Origin: Minisyncoccota bacterium | GTDB taxonomy: Bacteria; Patescibacteriota; Minisyncoccia; Phycocordibacterales; UBA9973 | Direction of reading: 5' to 3' | NCBI GenBank assembly: GCA_035510575.1 | Contig: DATKGV010000008.1 | Location: forward strand, 68,618-132,617 | Length of the DNA: 64,000 bases | Shown: positions 46,158 through 64,000 of the stretch, piece after piece | Position numbering within the stretch: position 1 is the first letter of the stretch | How the letters are laid out: each line of letters opens with the position of its first letter | The notes under the pieces: model-generated | Told to the model about the DNA's origin: nothing | Databases searched by the model: none | What the model saw: the letters and a program-made list of their open reading frames with translations, nothing else | Position numbers and translations under genes: made by a program

Positions 46158-46200
46158 GTAAGCTATGGATTCAACAGTCTGATTTTCGTATAATGGACAC

Positions 46201-46566: not shown

Positions 46567-46667
46567 ATCGTGGTATAGTATAAGCACAACTAAAGATTAC
46601 AGGTGGCGTACCGCACTTTGTGCCATGCCCGCTTCGTAGAGAAAGCCTAAGGAATTAATCTGTCGGA

Positions 46668-50606: not shown

Positions 50607-50611
50607 GCTAC

Positions 50612-53302
50612 TTACGCTTTTGAGAACAGTCGCACAATTTCTTCGAAATTCTTCGCTTTATTTTCTTCCCATTCCTCTTGTTTGATATACAGAGCTTCGT
50701 AGATCATTTTACTTTGCCTGTCATTCACATCCTTACACCACTTTTGCAAACGCTCAAACTTTATTTTGTCGTCCTCATCTTCTCTGCCTTTGGTCTCAAT
50801 GATGAAAACGGTCTTATCATTTTTTTTCACAAAGAAGTCAGGATAGTACGTGGCAATAAAGCCCTCGGAATTTTTATATTCAATTCGCAGAGCATTTGCT
50901 TCTTTGTTTTGGAAGTTTTTTGCATAAGAAATTATATCGTCGCACCGCTCAAGGAAATCGGCAAAAGTGAGCTCGAAATTACTATCGCCAACGATGCGAT
51001 TGAATACGGATTTTTTCGGGATCAAAAAAGATTTGTCATTTACAACGAATGGTCGCGCTTCACTTATCTTAATGTAGTTCTTTATTTCCGTATCACCACC
51101 ATCTTTTACTGTAAGCTCATTGATGGCTTTCTTGAACTCGTCCTTGATCAGCTTAATGTATTCGACTTCGGAGAGGTTCCGTAAGAGATTAAGATCGGAT
51201 AAATTGACAGCTCCCTCAAACATATAATTCTCCACGAAATCACGCACTTTACCGAATAAGATGTCGTAGCATCCGAAAAGTCGGAGCTCTCGCATTATCG
51301 CTTGGGCGAAGAAGCCTATGACGCTTTGATAGTTTGGCTCAATATCGCCAGTGAGAACAGTCGTATGGTGCGTCTTCTCATCTACAACGTCTTTAAACAC
51401 AATTTCGCGCTTCTCTTCCTCGGAAAATATTTTTATTTTTACTCGCTTACTACCAAACATTGAAACGTTAAGCTCTGATAGATTTTTATACTCTCTCTGT
51501 ATACGCGGACTCATGACAGGGATTTCAATATCGAGCTTTTCAATATCTTTTTTTGGGTTGTCCTTGTCCACTTCCACCACCATCGGCGTAATCGGCTTGG
51601 ATCCGCTACCCATCAGTCGCTTTTCAAGAAGTACACCCTCGCCTTTAATTGATTCAACAAAATCCATAAAGGCGGGAGTGCCGATGACACTTACATACTC
51701 ATCAACATCGTCTCTTCCGAAAAACATTCGTCGCAAGCCACGACCAAGCGTCTGTTCTGGCAATATCTTTGAGTCAGAGGCATATGGGCGAAGTCCCACG
51801 ATAGTTGTGACATTTTTCACATCCCATCCTTCTTTGAGCATCATCACAGAAATAATAACTTTGAATGGACTTTCCCAACTGTCGATGTCATTTGCTTGTT
51901 TTCGCAGGATTTCAAGTTCTTCCTTATTTTTTCCAGAGATGGTTTCAGAAATCTCACCACTTTTATTAGTATGAATTGTGAGGACTCCACCTTTTAGATC
52001 AGCGAAGCTCGTCTCAAGATATTGCGCTACTTCATCGCAGTTCTGAGTATCATCAGTCATTATGAACAATATAGATTTCTTACCTACAGGTTTGAGCGTC
52101 TCGTACGACTTCTTCCATTCTTCCACTCCAAGATTTATATAATCCCTGTATTTCTCACTGAACAGTGTGCTCTGGTTCGGCTTGAGTTTGCCACGGCTCG
52201 CTTCGTCCGGGACGACGGGATTTTTGACTATTCTCTGGTGTATTGCCTCAACAAGTGGATAGTCAGAAATCGTCTGTACGAAAATTGAGCCGTCCGTCTT
52301 CTTCGGTGTTGCAGTTACATCGAGTTGGAGCGACAACCCAGTACCTTTTTGTTTGAGGCGGTTGTCTATGTCTTGGATTGATTTGAACCAAGCGAGCTTC
52401 TCGTCGTGGATATGGTGTGCTTCGTCGTTAATGACGATCAACTCGTCTATATCTCGCACAATCATTCCCAAATCAACGGTAGAGTCATTCGTTTTCGTGA
52501 CAGGCTTTTCACCAAGGAAATACTGGGAAGCATCCTCGTCTTCTAGGGTTGCCTCTTTTGTGTCGCCTTCAAACACGCGATGGATATTTGTGAGGAATAT
52601 ATTACCTGTGTCTGAAATACCTCGCAGTGCATCTTGGAGGTGAAGTGTTACTTGAAAATCATCATGCCAGTTCTGTCCTCGATATCCATTATCAGGAAGT
52701 ACAGGATCTTCAAAAAATATGTTCAATCCTTCAAAATCTTTTTTTATTCGTTCAAAAACGATAACATTCGGAGTTATTAAAAGAAAGTTTTTTGCCAGCT
52801 TGGAGTCAGTTTCATAAAGTTTGTGAAAATACGCCCACGCGACGATCAAGCTCATAACTTTTGTCTTACCTGCCCCTGTCGCCATTTTTATCACGAAACG
52901 GAGCCAGTCCTCTGTGAACATTTGTGGAGAGAGTACGCCAGTCGAGTTGTATCTGATGAGATCGTATTTATCCTTTACTTGGGCAACCTCATAAAGCCAG
53001 ACAACTGTCTCCAGCGCTTCGCGCTGGGCGAAGTAGTATCGGAAATTATACGTAGTTCCATCTTTGTCAGCTAAAATATGTTCTTCTTTGAACCACCAGT
53101 TAAGCAATGCTATTGAAGTATCACTTGCTCCCTTGTAATTCTGGTCTCGCCACTCTTTTACTTTCTTTCGTAATTCCGCAACAAGAGGTGGAAGAAGTTT
53201 CTCATATCCTCGCTCGCGCAGATCCTCGGCAGCAGGAAACCACCGGATGCTCGGGTCGAGTATTTCAAATGGGTCTTTGGGAAAATCTTTATGTAGTGCC
53301 AT
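50612..53302 (-). CDS. res: Type III restriction endonuclease Res subunit (SF2 helicase + PD-ExK nuclease)
   Basis: Walker A TGAGKTKVMS, DEAH box VINDEAHH, helicase motif VI, C-terminal PD..ExK (YYPDFFV...IIETKG); lies immediately downstream of the mod gene on the same strand. Confidence 0.7.
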   Translation of the reverse strand: MALHKDFPKDPFEILDPSIRWFPAAEDLRERGYEKLLPPLVAELRKKVKEWRDQNYKGASDTSIALLNWWFKEEHILADKDGTTYNFRYYFAQREALETVVWLYEVAQVKDKYDLIRYNSTGVLSPQMFTEDWLRFVIKMATGAGKTKVMSLIVAWAYFHKLYETDSKLAKNFLLITPNVIVFERIKKDFEGLNIFFEDPVLPDNGYRGQNWHDDFQVTLHLQDALRGISDTGNIFLTNIHRVFEGDTKEATLEDEDASQYFLGEKPVTKTNDSTVDLGMIVRDIDELIVINDEAHHIHDEKLAWFKSIQDIDNRLKQKGTGLSLQLDVTATPKKTDGSIFVQTISDYPLVEAIHQRIVKNPVVPDEASRGKLKPNQSTLFSEKYRDYINLGVEEWKKSYETLKPVGKKSILFIMTDDTQNCDEVAQYLETSFADLKGGVLTIHTNKSGEISETISGKNKEELEILRKQANDIDSWESPFKVIISVMMLKEGWDVKNVTTIVGLRPYASDSKILPEQTLGRGLRRMFFGRDDVDEYVSVIGTPAFMDFVESIKGEGVLLEKRLMGSGSKPITPMVVEVDKDNPKKDIEKLDIEIPVMSPRIQREYKNLSELNVSMFGSKRVKIKIFSEEEKREIVFKDVVDEKTHHTTVLTGDIEPNYQSVIGFFAQAIMRELRLFGCYDILFGKVRDFVENYMFEGAVNLSDLNLLRNLSEVEYIKLIKDEFKKAINELTVKDGGDTEIKNYIKISEARPFVVNDKSFLIPKKSVFNRIVGDSNFELTFADFLERCDDIISYAKNFQNKEANALRIEYKNSEGFIATYYPDFFVKKNDKTVFIIETKGREDEDDKIKFERLQKWCKDVNDRQSKMIYEALYIKQEEWEENKAKNFEEIVRLFSKA

Positions 53303-53303
53303 A

Positions 53304-55562
53304 TTAAATTTTCACCTCGATTACTCGAGTGGTATCGTTACCAAAAATGTCTACGACCTTTACTGCAATGGTGTACGCTCCTTTTGGCATTTCTTTTTTT
53401 GCAGAAATGAGTTCAAGGTTCCTGTTCTTCTTAGTGCGAAAACTCTGCCATTCGTTATCAAAAATATAGTCTCCCGTCCATTCTTCTTTTTCTTCGCTGT
53501 CTTCTGTGAACTTTACGATTTCCTTTCGGCTTGTGAAATCAAAATCAACCGCCCAATAGTCAATCCAGTCACTCCACTTTTTTGTAAGCTGTTCAGGAGG
53601 ATTCACCATTCCATTCTTGTCGGTCGTGACTTTCCAAATCTGCCCTTTATCTACAACAATTTTAGTTTTACCTTTAGATCCGTTGATTTCCTCGATGACT
53701 GTATCGAGCTCGTCTTGTGAGTAGAAAACTGAGAAATCAGAAAGTTCGAGAGCAAGTTCTTTGATGCTTCCTTTGCCTGTTACAATAGGTTTGACCTCAA
53801 TGAAAGCAACATCGTAGAACTTGATTTGACCTTTTTCGACGGCGCGTTTGTCGAACACCTCGCGCGGGATGATTTTGAAAGATATATCCACGCCTTGTTC
53901 TTTGTACTCTTGAAAATCTATACCCATCTCGTAGTCGAAACCGAGTACATCCACTTTTGTAATCTGCTTTGATTTGCACTCTTTCACGATATCTTTTATG
54001 AGCTTATGTGAGACTGGATAATTTATAGGACCAACAGCAACGAGACGATCTCGCTTCTTACCGACAATATTCACGAACGATTCGACAGGCTCGGCTTTGT
54101 AAGCGGCGATGATGAGGCGAACAAACTCTTTTTCTTTTCGCTCTGCCTGTTTTGCTTTTTCTTCTGCTCGCAGATTATCGTTTATAGCAATATAGTTTTC
54201 ACGCTCGTATCTGCCAACGTTCAAAATTTCGAATGCTCGGAAATTCTTGCCCTCTTTTTTGAGTTCACGCTGTACTCCAATCATTCGCTTGCGAGAAGTA
54301 TGGACACCGAACTTGCCCAAATCGGATCCAATCCATTTTCTGCCGGACTTTTCTGCAACAGCCATTGTTGTACCCGAACCACAGAAAAAATCAGCGACAA
54401 GATTTCCTTCATCCGAAGACGCTTTGATCAAACGCTCTATGAGACTTTCGGGTTTCTGGGTTGGGTAATCAAGATTTTCTTTACTTATTGCTTGAATGTT
54501 GCTCGTAGTTTTATCTACAAATAAACTCTGTGCGGGAGTACCCTTGTTATCTTCTAAGTAATACTTGTAATGAATTGACTTATTTTTTGTAATAACAATT
54601 AAGTTATTTTTTATTGCTTCGTTTATTCTGTCTTGAGACCATCTCCAATGGTTTCCCTTGGGTGGAGCAATCAATTCACCATTGAAATATCTTGCCTCTC
54701 CAGATCCAGAAGCTGTCAGGGTGACCAATCTGTATTTTCTGCCGTCTCCGTCATCCAACTTGAAAAATGTATTTATGTAGTTTTCATCGGCTGGAGTATA
54801 TTGAGTATTAAAAATATAATTATCTGATTTGGTGTAGAACAAAATTGTGTCGTGTATATTTGCATACTTCGTATCAACATGCCCGTGCGGATTGCTTCTT
54901 TGCCAAATAATTTCATTCCTAAAATTATCTTTCCCAAAAATCTCATCCAAGACCAAACGCATATAACTATTTACTCTCCAATCACAATGCACATAAATAC
55001 TTCCGTCATCTGCGAGTAAGTCGCGCATCAATTTCAATCGCTCATAAATCATTGCGACAAAACTATCCGCACCCTTTCCCCAAGTATCACGATATGCGAT
55101 TTCTTCAATCACTGAAGGTTTTTTAGTAAACTGCTCCTCACCAATTTCTATATCCATCGAAAAATCCGCACCGACATCAAACGGAGGGTCTATGTAAATC
55201 AATTTAAGTCCGCCCTGTGCTTCAATTTCTTTTCGAAGCGGTCCGTTTTTGAGTGACGAAAGAATCAGTTTGTTATCGCCCCAGATGAGCTTGTTCGTCC
55301 AGCCCGTAACCTGTCTGCCAGTAGTATCAAAAAGTGAATCTTGCGCTCCGATCTTGCCTTCACTTCGAGGCTCATCGATTTGCTCGATTGCCTGAAACGG
55401 GAGGACAACATTTGTCACTTCGTTCGTTTTTCCATTCCAAAGAAGCTCGACCTCGCGGTCGTCTTTGAATAGTAAAAAACGATACTTGTCAGGGAGAGGT
55501 TTTCCTGCTTCCAAGTATTTTATTACATCTCTTTTTTCGTTATCTGAAAGATTTGATGACAT
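53304..55562 (-). CDS. mod: Type III R-M Mod subunit (N6-adenine DNA methyltransferase, beta class)
   Basis: Motif IV IYIDPPFDVGADF then motif I FFCGSGTTMAVAEKSGRKWIGSDL; 752 aa; 1-nt spacing to res. Confidence 0.7.
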   Translation of the reverse strand: MSSNLSDNEKRDVIKYLEAGKPLPDKYRFLLFKDDREVELLWNGKTNEVTNVVLPFQAIEQIDEPRSEGKIGAQDSLFDTTGRQVTGWTNKLIWGDNKLILSSLKNGPLRKEIEAQGGLKLIYIDPPFDVGADFSMDIEIGEEQFTKKPSVIEEIAYRDTWGKGADSFVAMIYERLKLMRDLLADDGSIYVHCDWRVNSYMRLVLDEIFGKDNFRNEIIWQRSNPHGHVDTKYANIHDTILFYTKSDNYIFNTQYTPADENYINTFFKLDDGDGRKYRLVTLTASGSGEARYFNGELIAPPKGNHWRWSQDRINEAIKNNLIVITKNKSIHYKYYLEDNKGTPAQSLFVDKTTSNIQAISKENLDYPTQKPESLIERLIKASSDEGNLVADFFCGSGTTMAVAEKSGRKWIGSDLGKFGVHTSRKRMIGVQRELKKEGKNFRAFEILNVGRYERENYIAINDNLRAEEKAKQAERKEKEFVRLIIAAYKAEPVESFVNIVGKKRDRLVAVGPINYPVSHKLIKDIVKECKSKQITKVDVLGFDYEMGIDFQEYKEQGVDISFKIIPREVFDKRAVEKGQIKFYDVAFIEVKPIVTGKGSIKELALELSDFSVFYSQDELDTVIEEINGSKGKTKIVVDKGQIWKVTTDKNGMVNPPEQLTKKWSDWIDYWAVDFDFTSRKEIVKFTEDSEEKEEWTGDYIFDNEWQSFRTKKNRNLELISAKKEMPKGAYTIAVKVVDIFGNDTTRVIEVKI

Positions 55563-56019
55563 AGGGGTACAGTTCTATGTCTCAGCTGTCTTATTTTTTT
55601 GTATAGAAACGGCAAAAAGGGACAGCCGAGCCTGTACCCCATAGCGGTGCTACCCCGAAAGGTTCCTGTTATGGAACTCGGACTGCCCCTCTTTGCCAAT
55701 AACAGGTAAGAGAAAACAGTCCTTTCGGGGACGAAGCACAATTATAAAAAACACTATGGGGTACTTTTGAAATATAACATAAAAACCCCCTTAAATGAAG
55801 CTTTATTTAAGGGGTTACCAACAGGCAGATTTAAGTGATATTTAGAGGAAAAGTATCACTTTTATGTGCCCCGCGCGATAGCAGATCAAAAAATCATAGA
55901 CATTGACACAAAACACAAAAATTGTACATTAAGCTCGGTCAACCCCCCGAATATTGAAGTTCCGACTCCTGCTCGGAGCTTCTTTTTCGGAATTATTAAA
56001 TAAGAAGAAATAGAAGCAT

Positions 56020-56895
56020 ATGACAAAACACAAGTTCACATTTGCAGAATTACCAATAGGTCAGGTCGCCCGAGATCCGAATCAACCGAGAAAAGACTTC
56101 GGAGCCGAAGGCGAGAAAAACAAGTTAAAATTATCAATCAAGAACTACGGAATCGAGGAGCCGATTAAAGTAAGCGAAATATCAGACAAGCGCTTTATTA
56201 TTATTGACGGACATCGTCGCTTCATATGTGCCCAGAAGCTTGGCATGAAGACGGTGCCTTGTCGCATCTATCCCAAGATGACGGACGGCGAGTTCGAGAC
56301 GAGACGTTACGAAATGCAAAACAATCGTCGTGCATGGAATCCGCTTGAACGCTCTGAAGCATTGGAGCGAATCAAGTACTCGTATGGGTTCAAGAACAAC
56401 CACGAGCTTGCCGATTACCTTGGCATGAGCAGATCATCTGTACAACTCGCAATGCAAATGAGAAAGCAGAGAATATCGAACTTAACAATGATGGAGAGAT
56501 ATAATGTACCGAAAAGCGTCCGTATGTCGATGCTCAACATCTTCAAGAAGCTCCGTAAGATCAAGAAACTTGAAGTCGATGACATCATCGAAGTCATATT
56601 CGAGAAGATCGACAAGAAAGTGATTACAAAATCGCTCGACATCCGCAAGATTGGCAAAGCGTTCATGCAAGCGACGATTAATGAGGATGAGCTGTACCAG
56701 TTTTTGACGAAGCCCGATATGACAGCGAATGAGCTCGAACAGCGTACGCGCCAGACAGGATTCGCGCTCATGTGTGGAGATCTCATCAAGAAGATTACTC
56801 AGAAAAAAGAGAATGGAACATCGTATACCAAGAACGAAAAAGCCTCTCTCGTTCAACTCCAAGCCCTTATCAGGAAAACTATAAAAGTCGCATAA
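56020..56895 (+). CDS. ParB-like N-terminal domain protein
   Basis: ParB/Srx core FIIIDGHRRFICAQKLG with upstream EPIKVS segment; 291 aa. Confidence 0.6.
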   Translation: MTKHKFTFAELPIGQVARDPNQPRKDFGAEGEKNKLKLSIKNYGIEEPIKVSEISDKRFIIIDGHRRFICAQKLGMKTVPCRIYPKMTDGEFETRRYEMQNNRRAWNPLERSEALERIKYSYGFKNNHELADYLGMSRSSVQLAMQMRKQRISNLTMMERYNVPKSVRMSMLNIFKKLRKIKKLEVDDIIEVIFEKIDKKVITKSLDIRKIGKAFMQATINEDELYQFLTKPDMTANELEQRTRQTGFALMCGDLIKKITQKKENGTSYTKNEKASLVQLQALIRKTIKVA

Positions 56896-56899
56896 TACT

Positions 56900-58288
56900 A
56901 TGGCAATATCTGTACCCACAAACAAAAAAGCCGTAGCGTATTATCGTCATTCTGCAAAAGATAAACAAGAAAATTCAGTTGCCATCCAACAAGGACATAC
57001 TCAAGCATTTGCCGCAACTCACAAAATAGAGATTATTCACGAAGAAGCAGATGAGGGTGAAAGCGGACTATCGGCCGATCGACCCGGATATCAGCGATTA
57101 TTCGATGAATGGATAACAAACCCCCTCGCCCCCGCCTTTGACTACGTCTTCGTATACGATGTCTCCCGTTGGGGACGATTTCAGGACCAAGACGAGGCGG
57201 CGCATTATGAATATCTTTGTAAGCAGCACGGTAAGAAAGTTGTTTACGTTTCGCAGGGCTTTCCTAAAGAAGATGAACAACTCATCTCCACACTTCAAAC
57301 ATCAATCGGTCGATACATGGCCGCCGAGTACTCGCGCCAGTTAAGCGGTAAAGTCTGGCACGGATGCGTCAAAGTTTCAGAGCAAGGATTTTCTGCCGGA
57401 GGACAGCCTCCATATGGGATGAGCCGATTACTTCTTGGCGAAGACAAGAAGCCAGTAAAGAAACTCAAACGAGGTCAATGGAAATCCATATCAAACGAGC
57501 GCGTCACATTCGCCCCTGCCGACGACGGAACAGCGGAGATAGTCAAAGACATGTATTCAATGCTCGTCGAGAAATGGGAATCGCCCCAGTCGATCGCCGA
57601 CATATTGAACGAGCGAGGCATTCCGACAGTGCAGGGTAAGAAATGGAAATCAAGCGGGGTGCTCAATATCCTCACTAACGAGGTATATACAGGAACCCGA
57701 ATTTACAACAAGACTTGGGGTCGATTGAAGCAAAAACATCGTGCTAATCCACGAAGCGAGTGGGTTATTCAGCCAAATGCGTTTGAAGGAATCATATCGT
57801 CTGAAATATTCAACGCCGCGCAAGACCGTCTGTACTGGCTCATGCCAAGCAAATGGCAAAAGGGCGCATACACGGTGCGAAAAGCGCGGCGTGGACTGCA
57901 AGCCGAAATCACGACCTTGCTCATGAGCAAAGGAATGGAAATCGACGACGCGGACATGGCGGTACGGAAATTGCCCATGGCGATCGGCGCACGGTTCACC
58001 GTCGAGGGTGTAGCCAACTGGTGCTTCACAGTGAAAGAATATATGAAGAATTATGACTACATCATCGGCGTAAGCGTCGCAACAGATCGGCATGATCCTG
58101 TTGATAGGTTCTTCTGGATTCCCATCAGCACATTTGACGGCACGGACTATGTGGTATTCTCGGAGAAAGATGACTGCTATCACACTTCGAGTATTCCGAG
58201 TGGCGAGGTTCAGAAAAGGATTCTGTCCTTGTTGCCTGATCTTAAATTATTTAGCGATTTACCTATAATAATTCCGCCAACAGAATAA
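56900..58288 (+). CDS. large serine recombinase (resolvase N-terminal catalytic domain + recombinase domain)
   Basis: N-terminal KAVAYYRHSAKDKQ (catalytic Ser context), ...VFVYDVSRWGR, recombinase domain (PYGMSRLLLGEDKKP); 462 aa. Confidence 0.7.
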   Translation: MAISVPTNKKAVAYYRHSAKDKQENSVAIQQGHTQAFAATHKIEIIHEEADEGESGLSADRPGYQRLFDEWITNPLAPAFDYVFVYDVSRWGRFQDQDEAAHYEYLCKQHGKKVVYVSQGFPKEDEQLISTLQTSIGRYMAAEYSRQLSGKVWHGCVKVSEQGFSAGGQPPYGMSRLLLGEDKKPVKKLKRGQWKSISNERVTFAPADDGTAEIVKDMYSMLVEKWESPQSIADILNERGIPTVQGKKWKSSGVLNILTNEVYTGTRIYNKTWGRLKQKHRANPRSEWVIQPNAFEGIISSEIFNAAQDRLYWLMPSKWQKGAYTVRKARRGLQAEITTLLMSKGMEIDDADMAVRKLPMAIGARFTVEGVANWCFTVKEYMKNYDYIIGVSVATDRHDPVDRFFWIPISTFDGTDYVVFSEKDDCYHTSSIPSGEVQKRILSLLPDLKLFSDLPIIIPPTE

Positions 58289-58344
58289 AAAGAATTAGAA
58301 TTATTGACTGGACTTATTTACGATCTTGCGTCATCTAATAGAGT

Positions 58345-58668
58345 GTGGACGACATAGAAGCGGTCATTAAGACCAGCCAGCATTTCAAATATGAGGACGA
58401 AGAATCAGATGTAAAATACGCCTTCAATCGTATTTCTGATTTGCCGGAATCTAAATCTAAGTTGAAACGAGCGATTAAAGATCGGATTCGTTTACTTTGC
58501 GCGTCGTATATCTCGCTCGCGTCATTCATTCCTGACGAGGATGCTGAATATTTGATCGGCTTGCACGGCGAGCAGAAGAAAAAACGATCAATCAAAATAA
58601 TGATGCGGATGATGAAAGAGATGGATAAGCTTGAAAAAGAAATCCGTAATTTTGATCCGTTTTCTTAA
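58345..58668 (+). CDS. hypothetical protein
   Basis: 107-aa ORF between recombinase and DGR target. Confidence 0.3.
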   Translation: MDDIEAVIKTSQHFKYEDEESDVKYAFNRISDLPESKSKLKRAIKDRIRLLCASYISLASFIPDEDAEYLIGLHGEQKKKRSIKIMMRMMKEMDKLEKEIRNFDPFS

Positions 58669-58765
58669 TTATAAAAAATTGCGCGAACTCGCTTCGCGAG
58701 TAAATGCCAAAGGGTCAAAGAATCCAAGAGCCAAAGAATCAGAAAAATACAAAGAGGCAATAGGT

Positions 58766-60607
58766 CTAAGATTCAGACTTGCGGAGACGGAAAGCGAACT
58801 CACTGTCCGGATGCCACTCGAGGCCGGGCGTCGCCCAATAGTTGTCCAGCCACAAACCGTCACCGTCGCGCACGAGGCGGAAGACGAACGGGTAGCCGCC
58901 AGAGTCAGCGATTTGTTTCATTCCAATACGCACCCATTCATTTAGAGGTTGATTCCTGTATTTAAGGCGATAGTTAGGGCCAGTATCAGGAGGACACAAT
59001 TCCAAGCCGAGCGTTTGTGCGCGTTCGTAAATTTGGTCAGTGGTAGCACTTGTTTTGAAACCAAGGTCAGCAACAGTAAGGCGGATAAGTGTTGCTTCTT
59101 CACGCTTTTTACCTGGAATGAAGTCACGATTCTTCATCATAGATTTTGCGTAGTCGGAAATATTGATGTGGGCTGCTTCCATTTCAGCAATCAATTGTTC
59201 GGCCGTCTTTCCACCTATCTCGACATTTTCTCTGCGAATTTTCTTGTCTGGGAACGAGGTGTATACATGCTCAAGACCTTCTGGCAATCTTTGGAAGATG
59301 CCTGGCTCAAGCTGTCCAACATACGCCTTTGTATCTTTTGTTATCTGGCTTGGAACGTGAGCAATTTCTTCCTTAGTACATGCAAAAATAACAAGCATGT
59401 CTTCCTCTGTATTTCTGCCAGCGCGAAGCTCGGCAATACGCGGATCGGTTTGGTATCCGAAACCTTCGATGGACGAGTTAATTTCATAGAGAAATACAAG
59501 ATCATCTTTGGTAAATGGTTCTTCTTGTTCGCGCTTTTGATCAAGAGCAGTCAGTATTTTCATGTCTCCACTTTTCTTTCGGTACGCATCTGCTTCGGTT
59601 CCGAAATCTTGGAGTTTTTCATCAAGTGCTTCCTGCATGATTGGTTCTACGCCTTGGTGCGGAAGAATACCACGCACTTCGCCAATTCTATTGTCACCCT
59701 CCATACGGATCGCAAGACGAGGTTGGGTTGGTTCGCCGTTTGAATCATTCGTGTAATAAACATAAAAGTCGCCATTCTCTATTTGTGTTTCTGCTGTCGA
59801 TTTACCGGCAGTACACCAACCAGTTCCTTTTCCTTCGAGTGATTCAAAAAGTTGCTCGGCGTCACCGCTTTGTCCCTGTTGGTATTTTTTCCATTCACCT
59901 TTGACCTCCTCACGGTTCTCCATTGAGGCAGCAAGAGATTTTGAGATGAGTTCAGCGTATAAGCTCGGAAACTTTTGAGAAAAAGCTTCGCGCACCTCTG
60001 GTTCTTTGAGATTTTTGTTATCTTCTTTTACTTTGAAATATATGTCGGCAATTTGCGCGAGTGGTTCGCGATAGATATCGGGATATGGTGCAACAGTACT
60101 ATCGGTACGCTTTTTGAACTCGCCACGCTCTTTGTCGAATTGGGAAAGTTTGGTGATATTTTTCCAAACAAAGTATTTGAACCATGCAGGATACATGGCA
60201 TCGTCTGAAGTAAGGTACTCCATCCACGCATTAAGCGATGCTCGCTGGTCTTCGATGGCAACATCCATCATTTGTTCACGGACATTGTCAGGGATTTCCT
60301 CTACTGCTTGTCCACGCTCGCGAGCGATGCGCTTTTGCAGTTCAAAATATGATTCAGGAAAATTCTCCTTTTTTATAATGAATGCGTCATATATTTTGTC
60401 GCGAAACATTTCGAGATTGCGTTCACGTTTCTTTTCATCAGGATTGAGAAAAACATTCTCCAAACGATCCATATAGGCTTCGATACGCTCGGAAGGATCA
60501 TTCGGCATTTTTTCGCCAGTCTGTCGCTCTTCTCGCACAACGGCTCGATTTACCTCGGGAGAAGTTTGAAGTTCCGGGCTTTTCATGTGGAGCGGGTGCT
60601 TTTCCAT
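58766..60607 (-). CDS. DGR target protein: 613-aa cytoplasmic protein with C-terminal variable region (CLec-like ...GLWLDNYWATPGLEWHPDSEFAFRLR)
   Basis: The last ~42 codons, immediately before the stop, form the VR matching the TR at 60902-61029; no signal peptide or TM; the N-terminal ~570 aa have no recognised domain. Confidence 0.7.
   Translation of the reverse strand: MEKHPLHMKSPELQTSPEVNRAVVREERQTGEKMPNDPSERIEAYMDRLENVFLNPDEKKRERNLEMFRDKIYDAFIIKKENFPESYFELQKRIARERGQAVEEIPDNVREQMMDVAIEDQRASLNAWMEYLTSDDAMYPAWFKYFVWKNITKLSQFDKERGEFKKRTDSTVAPYPDIYREPLAQIADIYFKVKEDNKNLKEPEVREAFSQKFPSLYAELISKSLAASMENREEVKGEWKKYQQGQSGDAEQLFESLEGKGTGWCTAGKSTAETQIENGDFYVYYTNDSNGEPTQPRLAIRMEGDNRIGEVRGILPHQGVEPIMQEALDEKLQDFGTEADAYRKKSGDMKILTALDQKREQEEPFTKDDLVFLYEINSSIEGFGYQTDPRIAELRAGRNTEEDMLVIFACTKEEIAHVPSQITKDTKAYVGQLEPGIFQRLPEGLEHVYTSFPDKKIRRENVEIGGKTAEQLIAEMEAAHINISDYAKSMMKNRDFIPGKKREEATLIRLTVADLGFKTSATTDQIYERAQTLGLELCPPDTGPNYRLKYRNQPLNEWVRIGMKQIADSGGYPFVFRLVRDGDGLWLDNYWATPGLEWHPDSEFAFRLRKSES
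58782..58909 (-). repeat. DGR variable repeat (VR)
   Basis: Its reverse complement aligns over 128 nt with TR (60902-61029). There are 21 mismatches, all at TR adenine positions (e.g. TR aac/VR ttc, aac/cgc, gaa/gtg, aat/tat, aaa/acg), and the flanks are identical. Confidence 0.8.
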
Positions 60608-60895
60608 ATATGGTTCGCATTATAGCATAAATTACTGCGAAATAAAGAGGTTTTTGGTATACTATTTTCAGATTGGTTTCATTGAACGGCTACGGTTTTT
60701 CAAGACCAATTTACTTCGTGTAGATTGAGAGCGCGAACGGTTATGGCTTTTCGCGGAGGATGTACATAGAGGTCTTTAAAAAGAAAAAACTTGGTGCGAC
60801 GCGCTGGTTGATTTTCGATCACGCATAACAATACAGCACGGCTTCTGGCACATTTATGTGCGCCTAAGTCGGCGGTGACATGGATGGCGTGCCGC

Positions 60896-61029
60896 ACAAA
60901 CGCTGACTCTGACGGCAACCCGAACGTCTTCAACCTCGAACGCAACGATGACGGTTTGTGGCTGAACAACAATTGGGCGAAACCCGACAACGAGTGGAAT
61001 CCGGACAATAAGTTCGCTTTCCGTCTCCG
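60896..61029 (+). repeat. DGR template repeat (TR)
   Basis: Adenine-rich (many AAC/AAT codons) copy of VR, lying between the target gene and avd/RT; it is followed at 61044-61075 by the hairpin ccgcgac...gtcgcgg and a T-run. Confidence 0.8.
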
Positions 61030-61057
61030 AAACTATTTTCTTTTCCGCGACCTCATG

Positions 61058-61465
61058 TTACATGTCGCGGTTTTTCTTTTCAGGGTTGGCAAGATTCTTC
61101 TTCCAGCCACCAAACATCTTGCCGACTTCTTCGAGTTTCAATGCCACGTTCTCGCAGTGAGCGTTTGAAATAAGCTTGCCCTCCCATGCAACAGAGACAA
61201 GAAACTTTAGTGTGTCCAACACCAAAATGCATTCAGTAATTTTTTCCTCTTTCTTCTCTTTTTCGATAAAATATGCGATGTATGACAATTCAAGCAGATC
61301 GAGAAACTTGTTCTCAATCCGTGAGCCGATTGTATAGCGTGCGCCTTTAGCAATATGCGGAACAATATTAACCCAAATCAAATACCCCTCTTTGATCTTG
61401 TTGAGGATCGAAGCGTTGTTGGTGTGCGAAAGTCGGGGGGGGGGGAGATTTGTCGCTCGGTTCAT
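61058..61465 (-). CDS. avd: Avd-like accessory variability determinant (four-helix-bundle protein); 5' end uncertain
   Basis: IVPHIAKGARYTIGSRIENKFLDLLELSYIAYF...ITECILVLDTLKFLVSVAWEGKLISNAHCENVALKLEEVGKMFGGWKKN matches the helix and length pattern of Bordetella phage bAvd; the annotated N-terminal 10 aa cross a C11 homopolymer. Confidence 0.6.
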   Translation of the reverse strand: MNRATNLPPPRLSHTNNASILNKIKEGYLIWVNIVPHIAKGARYTIGSRIENKFLDLLELSYIAYFIEKEKKEEKITECILVLDTLKFLVSVAWEGKLISNAHCENVALKLEEVGKMFGGWKKNLANPEKKNRDM

Positions 61466-62449
61466 ATCTACAATAATATCATTTCTGTGGAAAACTTACT
61501 CGTCGCATGGCGAGAATTCCTTCATGGAAAACGGAGCCGTAAAGACGTTGCCCAATTTTCAGTTCATCTGACCGATAATATACTTGCCCTCCATCGCGAA
61601 CTCGTCGATAAGACCTACCATCACGGTCTGTACAAAGCTTTTCGTATCAACGATCCCAAACCGCGTGATATTCATAAGGCGAGTGTTCGCGATCGGTTAC
61701 TTCACCATGCTATTTATAGGATTTTGTATCCCTACTTTGATCCTAAGTTTATTTTTGATTCGTATTCATGTCGGCGTGGTAAAGGCACGCACCGCGCGCT
61801 TGATAGATTTCGAGACTATGCCCGCAAAGTTTCTAAAAATCATACTCAGACAGTGTGGGTCTTGAAATGCGATATCAGAAAGTTTTTTGCAAACATTGAT
61901 CACACAATTTTAGAAGATATTTTGAAGCGTCGCATGGGAGACGAAGATGTCATTCAACTTTTTCGAGAAATTGTTGGCAGTTTTAATACCAAAGACAAGG
62001 ATGGTGTAGGATTACCTCTCGGTAATCTCACTAGCCAGCTTTTGGTAAATATTTATATGAACGAGTTTGATCATTTTCTCAAACGAGATTTGAAAGTTGA
62101 ATATTGCGTTAGGTACGCGGACGATTTTGTTATTCTGCACACAGACAAAAAATATTTAGAAAACGTCTTGCCAAAAATATCTGCATTTTTAGAAACAAGA
62201 CTCAAGCTATCCCTTCATCCTGATAAGGTGTTTATAAAAACATTCGCCTCGGGCGTAGACTTTCTTGGTTGGGTACATTTTCCACATCATCGTGTGCCGA
62301 GGACATCCACGAAAAAGAGAATGTTCAGAAATTTAAATCAAAACTCAAAAAAGGAATCACTAAGTTCCTACGCAGGGCTTCTGAGTCATGGCGATACACA
62401 TGAATTACGAGAGACAATATTTAAGAAGTATTCTGATAAGAAAATCTGA
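61355..62449 (+). CDS. DGR reverse transcriptase; 5' end uncertain (probably begins after the G11 tract, near 61455)
   Basis: RT motifs: ENLLVAWREFLHGKR (start of DGR RT core), motif 4 GLPLGNLTSQLLVNIY with the DGR-specific SQ, motif 5 VRYADDFVIL (YADD), ~330-aa core size. Confidence 0.8.
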   Translation: MRNNINPNQIPLFDLVEDRSVVGVRKSGGGEICRSVHIYNNIISVENLLVAWREFLHGKRSRKDVAQFSVHLTDNILALHRELVDKTYHHGLYKAFRINDPKPRDIHKASVRDRLLHHAIYRILYPYFDPKFIFDSYSCRRGKGTHRALDRFRDYARKVSKNHTQTVWVLKCDIRKFFANIDHTILEDILKRRMGDEDVIQLFREIVGSFNTKDKDGVGLPLGNLTSQLLVNIYMNEFDHFLKRDLKVEYCVRYADDFVILHTDKKYLENVLPKISAFLETRLKLSLHPDKVFIKTFASGVDFLGWVHFPHHRVPRTSTKKRMFRNLNQNSKKESLSSYAGLLSHGDTHELRETIFKKYSDKKI

Positions 62450-62523
62450 CCTTTTAGTTACCAACACCTACCACTCGGGACGCTCTGGACTCCTAGGGCG
62501 AGTTGCGTCATTCCTTGTAGTGT

Positions 62524-63867
62524 ATGAACCATACACAAACACAAGCGCCATTAGGGACTACGGCCAAAGTAGTAGTCCCCACAAAGGTAAAATACTGCCT
62601 TTACGCAAGAAAAAGTACGGAAAGTGAGGAACGCCAAGTGCTGTCCATAGACAGCCAGATCAAAGAGATGCTCCAATTGGCGGAGCGCGAGGGTCTTGAG
62701 ATCGTGACCATGAAGCGCGAGAGTCACAGCGCGAAAGAGACCGGCCAGCGTCCAGTCTTCAACGAGATCGTGGATGAAATCAAACAGGGCAAGTTTAACG
62801 GCATCCTGACATGGGCACCGGATCGAATCAGCAGAAACGCGGGCGACCTCGGGAAGATCGTCGACCTGATGGATGCCGGAAAACTGCATCAGATACGCAC
62901 CTTCGGGCAGACGTTCGGTAACAATCCGAACGAGAAATTCCTACTGATGATTCTCGGCTCGCAGGCGAAACTCGAAAACGACAACCGAGGCATCAACGTG
63001 AAGCGCGGACTGCGGACAAGAGTGGAGATGGGATTGTGGCCAGGCATGGCACCGCTTGGGTACCTGAATCAGAAGATGCTCGATCGTAAATGCCAGATTG
63101 CAATAGATCCTGACCGCGCGCCGATCGTCCGGAAAATGTTCGAGAAAGTAGCCCACGAGGGATGGAGCGGACGAAAGGTGTACAACTGGCTTCGGTTCGA
63201 CCTGAACTTCCATACGAGAGGACACAAGCCACTAACGCTCTCCGGTGTGTATCGAATATTCAATATGCCAATTTACTACGGGCCATTCGAGTACCCGAGA
63301 GACAGCGGCAACTGGTACGACGGAAAACATGAGCCGATCATCACCAAGGAATTATATGAGAAAGCGCAGGAACAGCTGAAGCGAGATAAGATCGTCAGAG
63401 AGAATCGGGAGTTCGCTTTTACAAAATTATTTACCTGCGGCATGTGCGGCTCGGGAATCACGGCGCAGGAGAAATATAAGGAGCTGAAAGACACGACGAC
63501 CGCCAAGTACGTCTACTACTCCTGCTCGAAAGCGAGAGATCGTAATTGCAAGAACAAGTACATCCGCGAGGAAGAACTGATCGAGGAACTTTTCAAAGTC
63601 ATTGACAAAGTGAGCATCAACGAACTGGGAATGCGAATGAAGCTCGAGGAAGAAATCAAGCGATTCAATCGGCTACAGCGACTTGCAACCAAAGGCACGC
63701 CGAAATATTCAATCAACGAGGACGATGTGAATACAAGAGAGTATGCAAAATACGTCCTGCGCGAGGGCACGCCGCTTGAGAAGCGCGAGCTGATGGGACA
63801 TCTGCGAAGCAGACTGGTGCTCAAGGACAAGAGAATTACGCTCCTTCAGGAAAGAGAGGAAAAATAA
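62524..63867 (+). CDS. large serine recombinase with C-terminal zinc-ribbon
   Basis: N-terminal YCLYARKSTESEERQVLSIDSQ catalytic region, ...GILTWAPDRISRN, recombinase domain, CGMCGSGI...YYSCSKARDRNC zinc ribbon, coiled-coil tail. Confidence 0.7.
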   Translation: MNHTQTQAPLGTTAKVVVPTKVKYCLYARKSTESEERQVLSIDSQIKEMLQLAEREGLEIVTMKRESHSAKETGQRPVFNEIVDEIKQGKFNGILTWAPDRISRNAGDLGKIVDLMDAGKLHQIRTFGQTFGNNPNEKFLLMILGSQAKLENDNRGINVKRGLRTRVEMGLWPGMAPLGYLNQKMLDRKCQIAIDPDRAPIVRKMFEKVAHEGWSGRKVYNWLRFDLNFHTRGHKPLTLSGVYRIFNMPIYYGPFEYPRDSGNWYDGKHEPIITKELYEKAQEQLKRDKIVRENREFAFTKLFTCGMCGSGITAQEKYKELKDTTTAKYVYYSCSKARDRNCKNKYIREEELIEELFKVIDKVSINELGMRMKLEEEIKRFNRLQRLATKGTPKYSINEDDVNTREYAKYVLREGTPLEKRELMGHLRSRLVLKDKRITLLQEREEK

Positions 63868-63877
63868 ATCGTTGAGG

Positions 63878-64000
63878 TTATGATCTCTTTTTCTTCACAG
63901 AAACCTTCTTGGCTTTCGTAGTAGATTTCTTCTTCGCTGTCTTTCTTGAGGAAGTCTTTTTCTTCGGATTCTTTTGAGCTGGAGTAAAGCAGTCGAGAAC
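63878..64000 (-). CDS. 3' end of a minus-strand gene entering from beyond the window (Lys-rich C-terminal tail)
   Basis: Reverse-complement translation gives ...KKKTSSRKTAKKKSTTKAKKVSVKKKRS* with a stop at 63878-63880; the rest of the gene lies outside the window. Confidence 0.3.
   Translation of the reverse strand, partial: VLDCFTPAQKNPKKKTSSRKTAKKKSTTKAKKVSVKKKRS

What the first reader, a model, noticed from the sequence alone, without database searches (positions are those of the whole stretch)
58766..62449. Complete diversity-generating retroelement (DGR) with adenine-specific TR/VR mismatches and split-strand architecture
The 3' end of the minus-strand gene 58766..60607 (VR, plus coordinates 58782-58909) is a 128-nt copy of a noncoding segment at 60902-61029 (TR). 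All 21 differences between them are at positions where the TR has A. The 5' flank (acaaa-cgctgactct) and 3' flank (ttcgctttccgtctccg) are identical. This is the diagnostic signature of DGR mutagenic homing. An Avd-like four-helix-bundle ORF and an RT carrying the DGR-specific LGxxxSQ and YADD motifs follow. The VR-encoded C-terminus (GLWL.N.W..P...W.PD..FAFRLR) resembles CLec-fold VRs. What is unusual is the layout: the target and avd are on the minus strand while TR and RT are on the plus strand. VR is therefore inverted relative to TR, which is rare among described DGRs. The TR is also followed directly by a hairpin plus T-run (61044-61075), terminator-like, before avd/RT.
Basis: partly seen in the sequence, partly recalled or inferred. 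Interest (0 to 1): 0.8.

Follow-up and report, generated by a model that had tools for sequence, protein, structure and literature searches.

The report
Diversity-generating retroelement with repeat-tract switch
This is a complete, apparently active diversity-generating retroelement in a Patescibacteria (CPR) genome that rewrites the C-terminal tip of a 613-residue soluble protein; its "split-strand" layout is normal for this bacterial group, but it also carries a length-variable G-tract inside its accessory gene and a large structured RNA ahead of its template, and I found neither described in the literature I could search.

Summary
TR (60898-61032, +) and VR (58779-58913, -) form a 135-nt repeat with 22 differences, all at TR adenines. 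The RT's closest solved relative is the Bordetella phage DGR RT, the 135-aa ORF passes Pfam's bAvd threshold, and the VR domain models as a C-type-lectin-like fold. Homologues of the target (>2,200, all named ones Patescibacteria) vary almost only at codons holding TR adenines, which points to ongoing diversification.

The "rare layout" claim fails. TR-(avd)-RT with antisense avd is architecture B3, reported for 90% of CPR DGRs. Among about 70 related loci the target sits in at least four positions or orientations, all with A-only mismatches.

Three things go beyond the finding:
- **Separate TR transcript.** TR appears to be its own ~410-nt unit, with an extended -10 promoter, a ~225-nt covarying 5' leader (no Rfam match), TR, then a hairpin and U-run. 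The 350 nt between TR and RT show no conserved structure.
- **Variable repeat tract.** A G11 tract lies in the overlapping 5' ends of avd and RT. In relatives it is G8-G18 or (GA)n, and its length differs between otherwise identical sequences. avd is in frame in only 23 of 67 loci.
- **Likely meaning.** This looks like a slipped-strand ON/OFF switch; in the window it is ON.

The DGR itself is ordinary; these two features are the interesting part.

The parts
58766..60607 (-). Target gene: 613-aa acidic soluble protein with no signal peptide or TM segment. N-terminal helical region, central alpha/beta domain (weak GNAT-like fold, invariant W264-C265), C-terminal C-type-lectin-like domain ending in the VR.
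58779..58913 (-). Variable repeat (VR), codons about 565-610 of the target. 22 differences from TR, all opposite TR adenines.
   Evidence: Column entropy is 2.10 bits at TR-A codons against 0.45 at other VR codons and 0.44 in the rest of the protein.
58782..58798 (-). IMH-like 3' boundary: 17 nt identical to TR 61013-61029, after which VR and TR diverge.
   Evidence: Only a 4-bp hairpin follows in VR, so there is no GC-rich cruciform like the one in BPP-1.
58682..58698 (-). Terminator-like hairpin plus T-run ending the target transcript. It is also the left edge of the relocatable target module (about 58685-60627).
60619..60627 (-). Extended -10 promoter (TGCTATAAT) of the target gene, 11 nt upstream of its ATG.
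60655..60663 (+). Extended -10 promoter (TGGTATACT) of the TR RNA, conserved in related loci whatever the target orientation.
60675..60897 (+). Structured 5' leader of the TR RNA. P1 60675-60707; P2 60719-60766 (both with loop motif ACGGYUAYGGYUU); long-range P3 60794-60805 with 60886-60897, enclosing P3a 60809-60821 and P3b 60836-60873. The A-rich tract 60779-60788 is complementary to the 3' U-tail.
   Evidence: 36-locus alignment A3. RNAalifold: 51 pairs, 36 with compensatory changes. Controls: 95% paired against 39-45% when slid, 0 of 500 shuffles reach the observed values. Coordinates. No Rfam match.
60898..61032 (+). Template repeat (TR), non-coding, rich in AAC/AAT.
61045..61080 (+). GC-rich hairpin (61045-61070) plus U-run (61071-61080): intrinsic terminator of the TR RNA and/or Avd-binding stem-loop. 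It overlaps the last codons of avd on the other strand.
   Evidence: Present in 47 of 48 related loci, with 36 different stem sequences, always followed by T5+. Compare Handa et al. preprint.
61058..61465 (-). avd (135 aa), antisense to TR and RT. Probably a leaderless mRNA from an extended -10 promoter (TGATATTAT, + coordinates 61473-61481) 7 nt upstream of its ATG.
   Evidence: Pfam bAvd 46.7 bits (cut-off 40). NCBIfam DivGenRetAVD 60.3 bits, below its cut-off of 80. Promoter and ATG conservation.
61435..61445 (.). G11 / C11 simple-sequence repeat inside avd codons 7-11 (Leu-Pro-Pro-Pro-Arg) and inside the RT ORF upstream of its conserved core. Putative slipped-strand phase-variation switch, in frame (ON) here.
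   Evidence: It is the only G/C homopolymer of 8 or more in the 64-kb window. The tract is G8-G18 or (GA)n in 67 of 71 related loci. An otherwise identical contig, L101, has G12. Six of 12 near-identical locus pairs differ only in tract length.
61355..62449 (+). DGR reverse transcriptase ORF. Homology to the Bordetella phage DGR RT (bRT) starts at codon 38 (61466). The only canonical starts (ATG 61355, GTG 61424) lie upstream of the G-tract, so RT and avd overlap head-to-head by 42-111 nt.
56900..58288 (+). Large serine recombinase flanking the cassette (context, not a DGR part).
62524..63867 (+). Second large serine recombinase, 74 nt downstream of RT. A homologue is adjacent to the cassette in L001, L006, L084 and L094 (context).

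Best explanation
This is a functional diversity-generating retroelement of the Patescibacteria (CPR) type, architecture B3 = TR-(avd)-RT.

SHOWN:
- A 135-nt TR and an inverted VR differ only at TR adenines.
- The cassette encodes a DGR-clade RT and an Avd.
- The VR forms the end of a C-type-lectin-like domain of a 613-aa soluble protein.
- Natural homologues vary at exactly the TR-adenine codons.

INFERRED mechanism:
- TR is transcribed on the + strand from its own extended -10 promoter (about 60655) as a discrete RNA of about 410 nt. This RNA has a ~225-nt structured leader, then TR, then a 7-bp GC hairpin and a U-run (to about 61080).
- RT and pentameric Avd bind this RNA. The hairpin is the likely Avd site. 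The leader probably supplies the RT-binding and priming scaffold that in phage BPP-1 lies downstream of TR.
- RT copies TR into cDNA, misincorporating opposite adenines.
- The cDNA replaces VR in the target gene. This works in trans, so the orientation of the target relative to TR does not matter.
- The target, avd and TR RNA each have their own promoter; no promoter for RT was identified.
- A hypermutable G11 tract sits in the overlapping 5' coding ends of avd and RT. A +/-1 slip would frameshift avd (and RT, if it starts at ATG 61355 or GTG 61424). That would switch mutagenesis OFF or ON stochastically. In this window both ORFs are in frame (ON).
For: A-only mismatches: 20 of 20 in the stated span and 22 of 22 over 135 nt, p about 1e-14.

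Proteins:
- RT: 8ub7 (the Bordetella phage DGR RT, bRT) E 5.5e-44 over residues 38-354, with LGNLTSQ aligned to IGSLTSQ and YADD to YMDD; group II intron and retron RTs score 76 bits or less.
- Avd: Pfam PF22296 above its gathering score.

Activity:
- P0002 differs from the window protein only at two VR residues.
- Entropy is 2.10 against 0.45 and 0.44 bits.
- A-only mismatches are seen in about 45 related loci in all target orientations.

Separate TR RNA:
- Conserved TGGTATACT promoter.
- Leader covariation: 36 of 51 pairs compensatory, 95% paired against about 42% in slid controls.
- Hairpin plus T-run in 47 of 48 loci, with 36 stem variants.
- RNAalifold finds 0 conserved pairs in the 350-nt TR-to-RT interval on the same strand and in the same 36 loci.

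Switch:
- The SSR is present in 67 of 71 loci.
- Window G11 against L101 G12 with 0 mismatches over 3,751 nt.
- (GA)n of 35, 27 and 31 nt, and of 19 and 17 nt, between loci with 100%-identical flanks.
- No start codon lies between the tract and Avd helix 1, and a conserved ATG is preceded by an extended -10.
Against: No read-level or RNA data were available, so ongoing mutagenesis, RNA ends and within-population tract switching are inferred from assemblies. Long G homopolymers are error-prone in Illumina assemblies, although the (GA)n cases are not.

avd is out of frame in 44 of 67 related loci. That equals the random 2/3 expectation, so it could also mean that Avd initiates in some way I did not recognise, or that transcriptional slippage rescues the frame.

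The RT start codon is unresolved. Some relatives have ATG or GTG between the tract and the RT core, so RT may not be switched in all of them.

Other weaknesses:
- The T-run also encodes the Avd C-terminal tail (EKKNR), so its conservation is not purely an RNA constraint.
- No GC-rich hairpin follows VR.
- NCBIfam Avd scores below its cut-off (60 against 80).
- The function of the target protein is unknown.
Confidence: 0.85

Rival explanations
1. Canonical DGR RNA. TR and RT are co-transcribed as in phage BPP-1. The hairpin after TR is only the Avd-binding stem-loop, not a terminator, and the RNA elements needed for priming lie downstream of TR in the antisense-avd stretch. The 5' leader would then be something else, for example a regulatory 5' UTR or an unrelated small RNA.
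For: Handa et al. predict an Avd-binding stem-loop (commonly 9 bp) just downstream of TR in 207 of 278 Avd-containing DGRs, CPR included, plus an upstream/downstream 'cPRT Stop' duplex. In BPP-1 all other elements lie in the 140-nt spacer after TR. No promoter for RT was identified. The T-run doubles as Avd codons.
Against: The TR-to-RT interval (61081-61434, + strand) has no conserved pairs at all in 36 loci. The leader has 51 pairs in those same 36 loci. A GC stem followed directly by U5CU4 in 47 of 48 loci is the textbook intrinsic-terminator form. Only about 48 nt follow TR before the U-run, too short to hold BPP-1-like elements.
Confidence: 0.25
2. The repeat tract has no regulatory role. 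On this view it is a mutationally unstable but tolerated linker or untranslated stretch, or an assembly artefact. Avd and RT would be made regardless of its length, for example through downstream or non-canonical initiation or through transcriptional slippage.
For: ON:OFF is 23:44, exactly the random expectation. G11-G18 tracts are hard to sequence. Four related loci lack any tract (L060, L083, L084/L094, L092) and still show A-only TR/VR mismatches where both are visible. Both poly-G and (GA)n are stop-free in every frame on both strands.
Against: A tract is kept at the same site in 67 of 71 loci across RT identities of 61-100%, as two different repeat types. It is the only such homopolymer in 64 kb. 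Dinucleotide tracts differ by 2-8 nt between loci with identical flanks from independent assemblies. The Avd profile match starts 8 residues after the tract with no start codon in between, and the ATG beyond the tract is conserved with a leaderless-type promoter.
Confidence: 0.25
3. Fossil DGR. The TR/VR differences record past activity and the element is now inert.
For: L101, assembled from another sample, has a VR identical to the window's, so there has been no turnover between those two samples.
Against: All three ORFs are intact and in frame, and TR has 0 non-A differences. P0002 is identical outside VR but differs at two VR residues. The family as a whole is hypervariable only at TR-A codons.
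Confidence: 0.07
4. The RT belongs to a group II intron, retron or defence RT, and the repeat is coincidental.
For: The best NCBIfam hit is the group II intron RT/maturase model, at 152.7 bits. NCBIfam returned no DGR RT model among its hits.
Against: That score is far below the model's cut-off of 300. Retron and DRT models score 72 bits or less. The Bordetella phage DGR RT (bRT) scores twice as high as any group II RT among solved structures. There is no Rfam intron or retron RNA. The A-only mismatch pattern has p about 1e-14.
Confidence: 0.01

Closest known systems
CPR/Patescibacteria DGRs: architecture B3, TR-(avd)-RT (Wu et al. 2018, PMC5758913); DGR clade 2 of Roux et al. 2021 (PMC8144416); first surveyed by Paul et al. 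2017 (not readable here)
   Same: The host group matches. avd sits on the reverse strand between TR and RT. Target placement is variable. The target lacks recognisable domains, TM segments or signal peptides. Mismatches are A-specific.
   Different: Nothing about the core differs; this is a member. In the sources I could read, I found no description of the repeat tract in the avd/RT overlap, or of the ~225-nt covarying leader upstream of TR.
Bordetella phage BPP-1 DGR (mtd-avd-TR-brt), including the bRT-Avd-RNA cryo-EM model (8ub7; Handa et al. preprint 10.1101/2023.10.23.563531)
   Same: The RT is homologous (E 5.5e-44) and the SQ and Y(A/M)DD motifs are shared. Avd is present. The VR ends a CLec-fold domain. 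A stem-loop follows TR directly. An upstream segment is complementary to a downstream one: 60779-60788 with 61071-61080, resembling the cPRT-Stop duplex.
   Different: BPP-1 has all genes on one strand, with TR and brt co-transcribed. Its roughly 140-nt structured spacer lies downstream of TR. Here only about 48 nt follow TR before a terminator-like U-run, the next 350 nt are unstructured antisense avd, and the large structured domain lies upstream. No GC-rich cruciform follows VR. The target is a cytoplasmic-type protein, not a phage tail fibre.
Simple-sequence-repeat contingency loci (Neisseria, Haemophilus, Campylobacter poly-G/C phase variation)
   Same: A homopolymer or dinucleotide tract of 8 nt or more lies inside the 5' coding region. 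Its length differs between otherwise identical genomes. In-frame and out-of-frame alleles coexist.
   Different: Known contingency genes mostly encode surface structures or R-M systems. Here the tract gates a mutagenesis machine, and it lies in two overlapping, divergently oriented ORFs at once. Switching within a population was not observed directly.
Retron msr-msd RNA
   Same: A discrete non-coding RNA has its structured, RT-recruiting part 5' of the reverse-transcribed template. Its 5'-proximal and 3'-terminal segments are complementary.
   Different: The RT is not of retron type and there is no msr/msd Rfam match. Priming from the leader is pure conjecture. The product replaces a chromosomal VR rather than accumulating as msDNA.
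Treponema denticola TvpA and other cellular CLec-fold DGR targets
   Different: TvpA is a lipoprotein displayed on the surface. This target has no export signal, a roughly 400-residue helical and alpha/beta N-terminal region of unknown function, and no sequence similarity to TvpA.

Membership tests
Diversity-generating retroelement (DGR) | TR/VR repeat pair whose differences are (almost) all at TR adenines | tested here: met
Diversity-generating retroelement (DGR) | RT of the DGR clade, with motif 4 [I/L/V]GxxxSQ and catalytic YxDD | tested here: met
   LGNLTSQ and YADD align with IGSLTSQ and YMDD of the Bordetella phage DGR RT, bRT (8ub7). 154 bits against 76 or less for group II, retron and Cas-RT chains. 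No RT tree was built.
Diversity-generating retroelement (DGR) | Accessory variability determinant (Avd) next to TR/RT | tested here: met
   Pfam PF22296 bAvd 46.7 bits, above the cut-off of 40. NCBIfam NF033474 60.3 bits, below its equivalog cut-off of 80.
Diversity-generating retroelement (DGR) | VR at the 3' end of a protein-coding target, with TR adenines on codon positions 1-2 (AAC/AAT codons) | tested here: met
   VR covers codons about 565-610 of 613. 18 of 20 changed adenines are at codon positions 1 or 2.
Diversity-generating retroelement (DGR) | IMH/IMH* boundary and a GC-rich inverted repeat downstream of VR | tested here: inconclusive
   A 17-nt identical 3' flank is followed by divergence. 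Only a 4-bp stem follows VR. Wu et al. found such repeats in only 34% of DGRs, so this feature is not obligatory.
Diversity-generating retroelement (DGR) | Ongoing diversification: polymorphism confined to VR adenine positions among near-identical genomes | tested here: met
   Tested at the level of assemblies only. P0002 equals the window protein except for SE>GK in VR. Entropy is 2.10 bits at TR-A codons against 0.44-0.45 elsewhere. Read-level data could not be tested.
Diversity-generating retroelement (DGR) | Variable residues displayed on a C-type-lectin (or Ig) fold | tested here: met
   [not shown]
DGR architecture B3 (Wu et al. 2018) | Core order TR-(avd)-RT, with avd on the reverse strand | tested here: met
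   Window coordinates. The same core is seen in every related locus where all parts are visible. Definition and 90% CPR frequency.
SSR contingency locus (slipped-strand phase variation) | Repeat tract within the ORF, so that unit changes shift the frame | tested here: met
   G11 lies in avd codons 7-11, with no start codon between the tract and the Avd domain. It also lies within the RT ORF if RT starts at 61355 or 61424.
SSR contingency locus (slipped-strand phase variation) | Tract length polymorphic between otherwise identical sequences | tested here: met
   Window G11 against L101 G12, 0 mismatches in 3,751 nt. Six of 12 near-identical pairs differ only in the tract.
SSR contingency locus (slipped-strand phase variation) | Reversible ON/OFF expression within a clonal population | not testable with these tools
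   Needs reads, reporter fusions or proteomics.
Rho-independent terminator | GC-rich stem-loop followed directly by a U-run; conserved with stem covariation | tested here: met
   7-bp stem at 61045-61070 plus U5CU4. 47 of 48 loci, 36 distinct stems. The generic scan missed it because its loop exceeds 8 nt. Termination in vivo was not tested.
Group II intron / retron (considered and rejected) | Family-level RT score plus the cognate structured RNA (intron domains; msr/msd) | tested here: not met
   TIGR04416 152.7 bits against a cut-off of 300. Retron St85 RT 59 bits against 235. No Rfam intron or retron hit at E of 1 or less.

The most novel reading that the evidence does not exclude
This CPR DGR clade may run on a permuted, self-contained template RNA and may be gated by a contingency switch.

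(1) The RNA scaffold that recruits RT-Avd and positions the primer lies 5' of TR, in a ~225-nt covarying leader (retron-like topology). It does not lie in a spacer 3' of TR. The RNA ends at its own terminator, which is why avd can sit antisense between TR and RT.

(2) A hypermutable G(n) or (GA)n tract is shared by the head-to-head overlapping 5' ends of avd and RT. It switches the whole mutagenesis machine ON and OFF by slipped-strand mispairing, so most cells carry a silent DGR and a minority diversify. That would be a hypermutable switch on a hypermutator. Neither feature is described in the literature I could search.
Probability: 0.4. Interest if true: 0.75.

Novelty: new variant of a known kind. 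Interest (0 to 1): 0.55.

Why it matters
How DGRs are regulated is largely unknown, and so is how cells avoid the cost of constant mutagenesis. The same holds for why many catalogued DGRs look inactive in time series.

A repeat tract conserved across a whole CPR clade would give a simple, testable answer for one large lineage, if it frameshifts Avd and probably RT. The test is to count tract lengths and VR diversity in the same reads.

The 5' leader shows that the RNA architecture worked out for phage BPP-1 (scaffold downstream of TR) is not universal. It gives a defined ~410-nt RNA for reconstituting a CPR DGR.

The target family is one of the most conserved and widespread CPR proteins without annotation. 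It has more than 2,200 homologues, many of them 78-100% identical across named CPR classes. Knowing that it is a soluble CLec-tipped protein with a GNAT-like core narrows the hypotheses about what these episymbionts diversify.

If the two extra features turn out to be already published or non-functional, what remains is a routine, correctly called DGR.

Tried and rejected
**Sequence annotation of the target.** Pfam, NCBIfam, PDB phmmer, a PDB profile search and a Pfam scan of 27 diverse family members gave nothing. My recollection that the WCTAG...YVYY motif resembles PcfJ-like proteins was not borne out by any hit and is dropped.

**Rfam.** Scanning 58300-62600 at E of 1 or less gave only two chance hits (snoRNA, IS009), with no RT-associated motif, retron or intron.

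**Recombinase-mediated inversion of the target.** I looked for inverted repeats at the module ends (about 58685 and 60627). None was convincing: only 14-27-nt pairs at 70-94% complementarity scattered across the region. Breakpoint mapping against L003, L014, L015 and L009 shows clean module boundaries but no shared core site. VR x TR homologous recombination cannot produce the observed arrangements, because both breakpoints lie outside the repeats.

**Phage origin.** Only 1 of 6 IMG/VR hits belongs to this clade (L094, 63% RT identity); the others are 36% relatives. I make no claim that the element is viral.

**Covariation between the A-rich leader tract and the 3' U-tail.** By my own reading of the sequences, both are nearly invariant. 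The few variant tails (L050, L085, L093) are suggestive but ambiguous, so the duplex remains a complementarity, not a supported helix.

**RT start and promoter.** No canonical start lies between the tract and the RT core in most loci, and no convincing promoter was found. This is left open.

**Literature.** Paul et al. 2017 (PMC5436926) could not be read, and the supplements of Wu et al. are not held. My statement that the features are undescribed is limited to the searchable library.

Full report
**1. The observation**

- a 613-aa ORF on the minus strand (58766-60607);
- a non-coding stretch;
- a 135-aa minus-strand ORF (61058-61465);
- a 364-aa plus-strand ORF (61355-62449).

An ungapped comparison of the plus strand at 60902-61029 with the reverse complement of 58782-58909 gives 20 mismatches. 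Every one is at a TR adenine (34 adenines, 20 changed; hypergeometric p about 1e-14). Eighteen of the 20 fall on codon positions 1 or 2 of the target. The repeat finder reports the same pair as the longest inverted repeat of the region: 58779-58913 with 60898-61032, 135 nt, 84% complementary. The two extra differences (60900, 61030) are also at adenines, so the count is 22 of 22. TR has no other copy in the 64-kb window.

**2. Identity of the parts**

- **RT.** The RT ORF matches Pfam RVT_1. Among solved structures its best match is the 328-aa Bordetella phage DGR RT (bRT; 8ub7, E 5.5e-44, 154 bits, residues 38-354). That is twice the score of any group II intron or retron RT. LGNLTSQ aligns with IGSLTSQ, and YADD with YMDD. 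NCBIfam's group II, retron and DRT models all score far below their cut-offs.
- **Avd.** The small ORF passes Pfam's bAvd gathering score (46.7 against 40). It hits NCBIfam's Avd equivalog below cut-off (60 against 80).
- **Target.** The target has no Pfam, NCBIfam or PDB sequence relative, even with a 27-member profile. It has no hydrophobic segment or signal peptide.

**3. Evidence of activity from relatives**

The target has more than 2,200 homologues. The window's own protein is recorded as a hypothetical protein of a 'Candidatus Paceibacterota' MAG, and every hit that carries an organism name is Patescibacteria. Many are 78-100% identical over the full length.

Their C-termini are hypervariable at exactly the positions that hold TR adenines. 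Across 69 ungapped homologues the mean column entropy is:
- 2.10 bits at the 24 TR-adenine codons;
- 0.45 bits at other VR codons;
- 0.44 bits in the rest of the protein.

One protein from another metagenome (P0002) is identical to the window's except for two VR residues.

**4. The layout is not unusual**

I fetched 13 genome loci through the target and 80 metagenome plus 6 viral loci through the RT, then annotated all of them. The core TR(+)-avd(-)-RT(+) is the same in every locus of this clade.

The target varies in position:
- directly upstream on the same strand as TR (about 35 loci);
- upstream and divergent, as in the window (about 16 loci);
- downstream and convergent with RT (about 8 loci);
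- downstream on the same strand (2 loci).

Mismatches are A-only in all arrangements. Comparison with L003 shows that a clean 1.94-kb target module (about 58685-60627, from promoter to terminator) is simply inverted relative to the cassette.

Wu et al. 2018 already define this core as architecture B3 = TR-(avd)-RT. They state that it accounts for 90% of CPR DGRs and is nearly absent elsewhere. Roux et al. 2021 describe a Patescibacteria-restricted DGR clade whose targets lack TM or known domains. The element is therefore a typical member of a known group, and VR orientation relative to TR evidently does not matter for homing.

**5. The TR transcription unit**

Aligning the region upstream of TR from loci with different target orientations showed that conservation starts at an extended -10 promoter (TGGTATACT, 60655-60663) and continues to TR.

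On 36 loci RNAalifold predicts 51 base pairs, 36 of them with compensatory changes. The controls are clear:
- 95.2% of cells are paired, against 39-45% when partners are slid;
- the covariation score is 0.557, against 0.144 or less;
- 0 of 500 shuffles reach the observed values.

In window coordinates the helices are:
- P1 at 60675-60707;
- P2 at 60719-60766, which shares the loop motif ACGGYUAYGGYUU with P1;
- a long-range P3 (60794-60805 with 60886-60897) that closes directly against the first base of TR and encloses P3a and P3b.

Rfam has no match.

Downstream of TR, a GC-rich hairpin followed at once by U5CU4 is present in 47 of 48 loci, with 36 different stem sequences. By contrast, the 350 nt between that U-run and the repeat tract give zero conserved pairs in the same 36 loci. 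This stretch is the antisense of avd, read on the TR/RT strand.

In phage BPP-1 the Avd-binding stem-loop, priming adenosine, cPRT-Stop, Thumb Ring and bRT-binding stem all lie in the 140-nt spacer after TR. Handa et al. predict the post-TR stem-loop and an upstream/downstream duplex in most Avd-containing DGRs, CPR included. Here the hairpin fits the Avd-binding stem-loop. The leader tract 60779-60788 (AAAAGAAAAA) is perfectly complementary to the U-tail 61071-61080. The rest of the scaffold can only be in the 5' leader.

I therefore infer a discrete ~410-nt TR RNA with a permuted layout. This is an inference from conservation; no RNA data were available.

**6. The repeat tract**

The G11 run at 61435-61445 is the only G/C homopolymer of 8 or more in the window. 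It lies in avd codons 7-11 and, on the other strand, in the RT ORF upstream of the part homologous to bRT.

In related loci the same site carries G8 to G18 or (GA)n of 10-35 nt. This holds for 67 of 71 distinct loci.

Length differs between otherwise identical sequences:
- Contig L101, from an independent run, matches the window over 3,751 nt with no mismatch and one gap: G12 instead of G11.
- Six of 12 locus pairs whose 250-nt flanks on both sides are 98-100% identical differ only in tract length. These include dinucleotide tracts of 35, 27 and 31 nt and of 19 and 17 nt, which are not homopolymer artefacts.

The Avd profile match begins 8 residues after the tract, and no start codon lies in between. 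Beyond the tract there is a conserved ATG. Seven nucleotides upstream of it, on the avd strand, sits an extended -10 (TGATATTAT). This suggests a leaderless mRNA and explains the near-invariant ATAATATCA on the RT strand.

With that start, avd is in frame in 23 of 67 loci and out of frame in 44. Within the near-identical pairs both states occur. For RT, most loci have no canonical start between the tract and the core. An in-frame ATG upstream of the tract (61355 in the window) is present in 19 of the 23 avd-ON loci and rarely otherwise. This is because the two ORFs are codon-aligned antisense on both sides of the tract. One slip would therefore shift both.

I read this as a slipped-strand ON/OFF switch, or at least a rheostat, on the DGR. 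The window is in the ON state.

Caveats:
- the 1:2 ratio is also what neutrality predicts;
- transcriptional slippage could blur the switch;
- G-runs are error-prone;
- switching within a population was not seen.

Full-text searches combining DGR or Avd with phase variation, contingency loci, SSR or frameshift found no description of this. Paul et al. 2017 could not be read.

**7. Context**

The cassette lies in a 46-64 kb stretch of higher G+C (0.42-0.49, against 0.30-0.41 over most of the adjacent 14-46 kb). This stretch holds two DNA methylases, an HTH/terminase-like gene, a Type III restriction-modification pair, a ParB-like protein and two large serine recombinases that bracket the DGR. 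A homologous recombinase is next to the cassette in several relatives. Together with 74-94% target identity in MAGs labelled as different CPR classes, and even as Bdellovibrionales or Gammaproteobacteria, this suggests a mobile island or mis-binning. I found no recombination sites.

**8. Verdict**

The claimed rarity of the layout is not. As a DGR it is an ordinary new member of the CPR B3 group. The conserved 5' scaffold RNA with its own terminator, and the hypervariable tract shared by the avd and RT 5' ends, are real sequence features. I found neither described in the sources I could search. They raise the interest to moderate, pending read-level and experimental tests.

Noticed in passing
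window 61435-61445; same site in L001-L101: A G11 tract lies in the overlapping 5' ends of avd (-) and RT (+). In relatives it is G8-G18 or (GA)n. Its length differs between otherwise identical contigs, and avd is in frame in only 23 of 67 loci. It is a candidate phase-variation switch on the DGR.
   Followed up: yes
window 60655-60897: An extended -10 promoter is followed by a ~225-nt non-coding leader upstream of TR. The leader has seven covarying helices and two hairpins that share the loop motif ACGGYUAYGGYUU. There is no Rfam family for it.
   Followed up: yes
window 58685-60627 compared with L003 7981-9923, L014, L015, L009: The target gene, with its own promoter and terminator, behaves as a 1.94-kb module. 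It is found inverted or relocated relative to the TR-avd-RT core in close relatives. No recombination site was identified at its ends.
   Followed up: partly
L001 8001-9842 and 11370-13211: There is a tandem second copy of partial RT-avd-TR-leader-target (period 3,369 bp) whose VR is 100% identical to the first copy. This is either a very recent duplication or an assembly artefact.
   Followed up: no
window 58700-58765 (target 3' UTR); same region in L003, L030, L036, L040, L064, L085: Several copies of a YTTTGA/TCTTTG motif lie between the target stop codon and its terminator (direct repeat AAGGGTCAAAGAATC / AAGAGCCAAAGAATC on the + strand). They are conserved as a pattern across relatives. 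They could be a protein-binding or homing-related element replacing the GC hairpin of BPP-1.
   Followed up: no
L013 8001-9833; L010 3763-5670: Some members of the target family have no TR, avd or RT detected in the flanking DNA held for the locus (8 kb each side for L013; less upstream for L010). Their C-termini differ and are not VR-like (for example ...KKFIFRYRK). The protein family therefore exists without a DGR.
   Followed up: no
window 46000-64000: This is a higher-GC island containing two N6/N4 DNA methylases (46668-48011, 47953-48759), an HTH/terminase-like ORF (48743-49147), a Type III R-M pair (50612-53302, 53304-55562), a ParB-like gene (56020-56895) and two large serine recombinases (56900-58288, 62524-63867) bracketing the DGR.
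   Followed up: partly
window, whole: The extended -10 motif TGNTATAMT occurs 13 times against 5.2 expected (0 of 100 shuffles reach 13). Three DGR transcription units (target, TR RNA, avd) use this type of promoter with very short or no leaders.
   Followed up: partly
[not shown]
   Followed up: partly
window 58345-58668: A 107-aa + strand ORF lies between recombinase 1 and the target terminator, with no family hit. It is also called as a gene on the near-identical contig L100.
   Followed up: no
L001-L008 record titles: Near-identical target genes (60-94% identity) sit in MAGs labelled Saccharibacteria, Nomurabacteria, Kaiserbacteria, Bdellovibrionales and Gammaproteobacteria. This points to horizontal transfer of the island or to mis-binning or mislabelling.
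   Followed up: no
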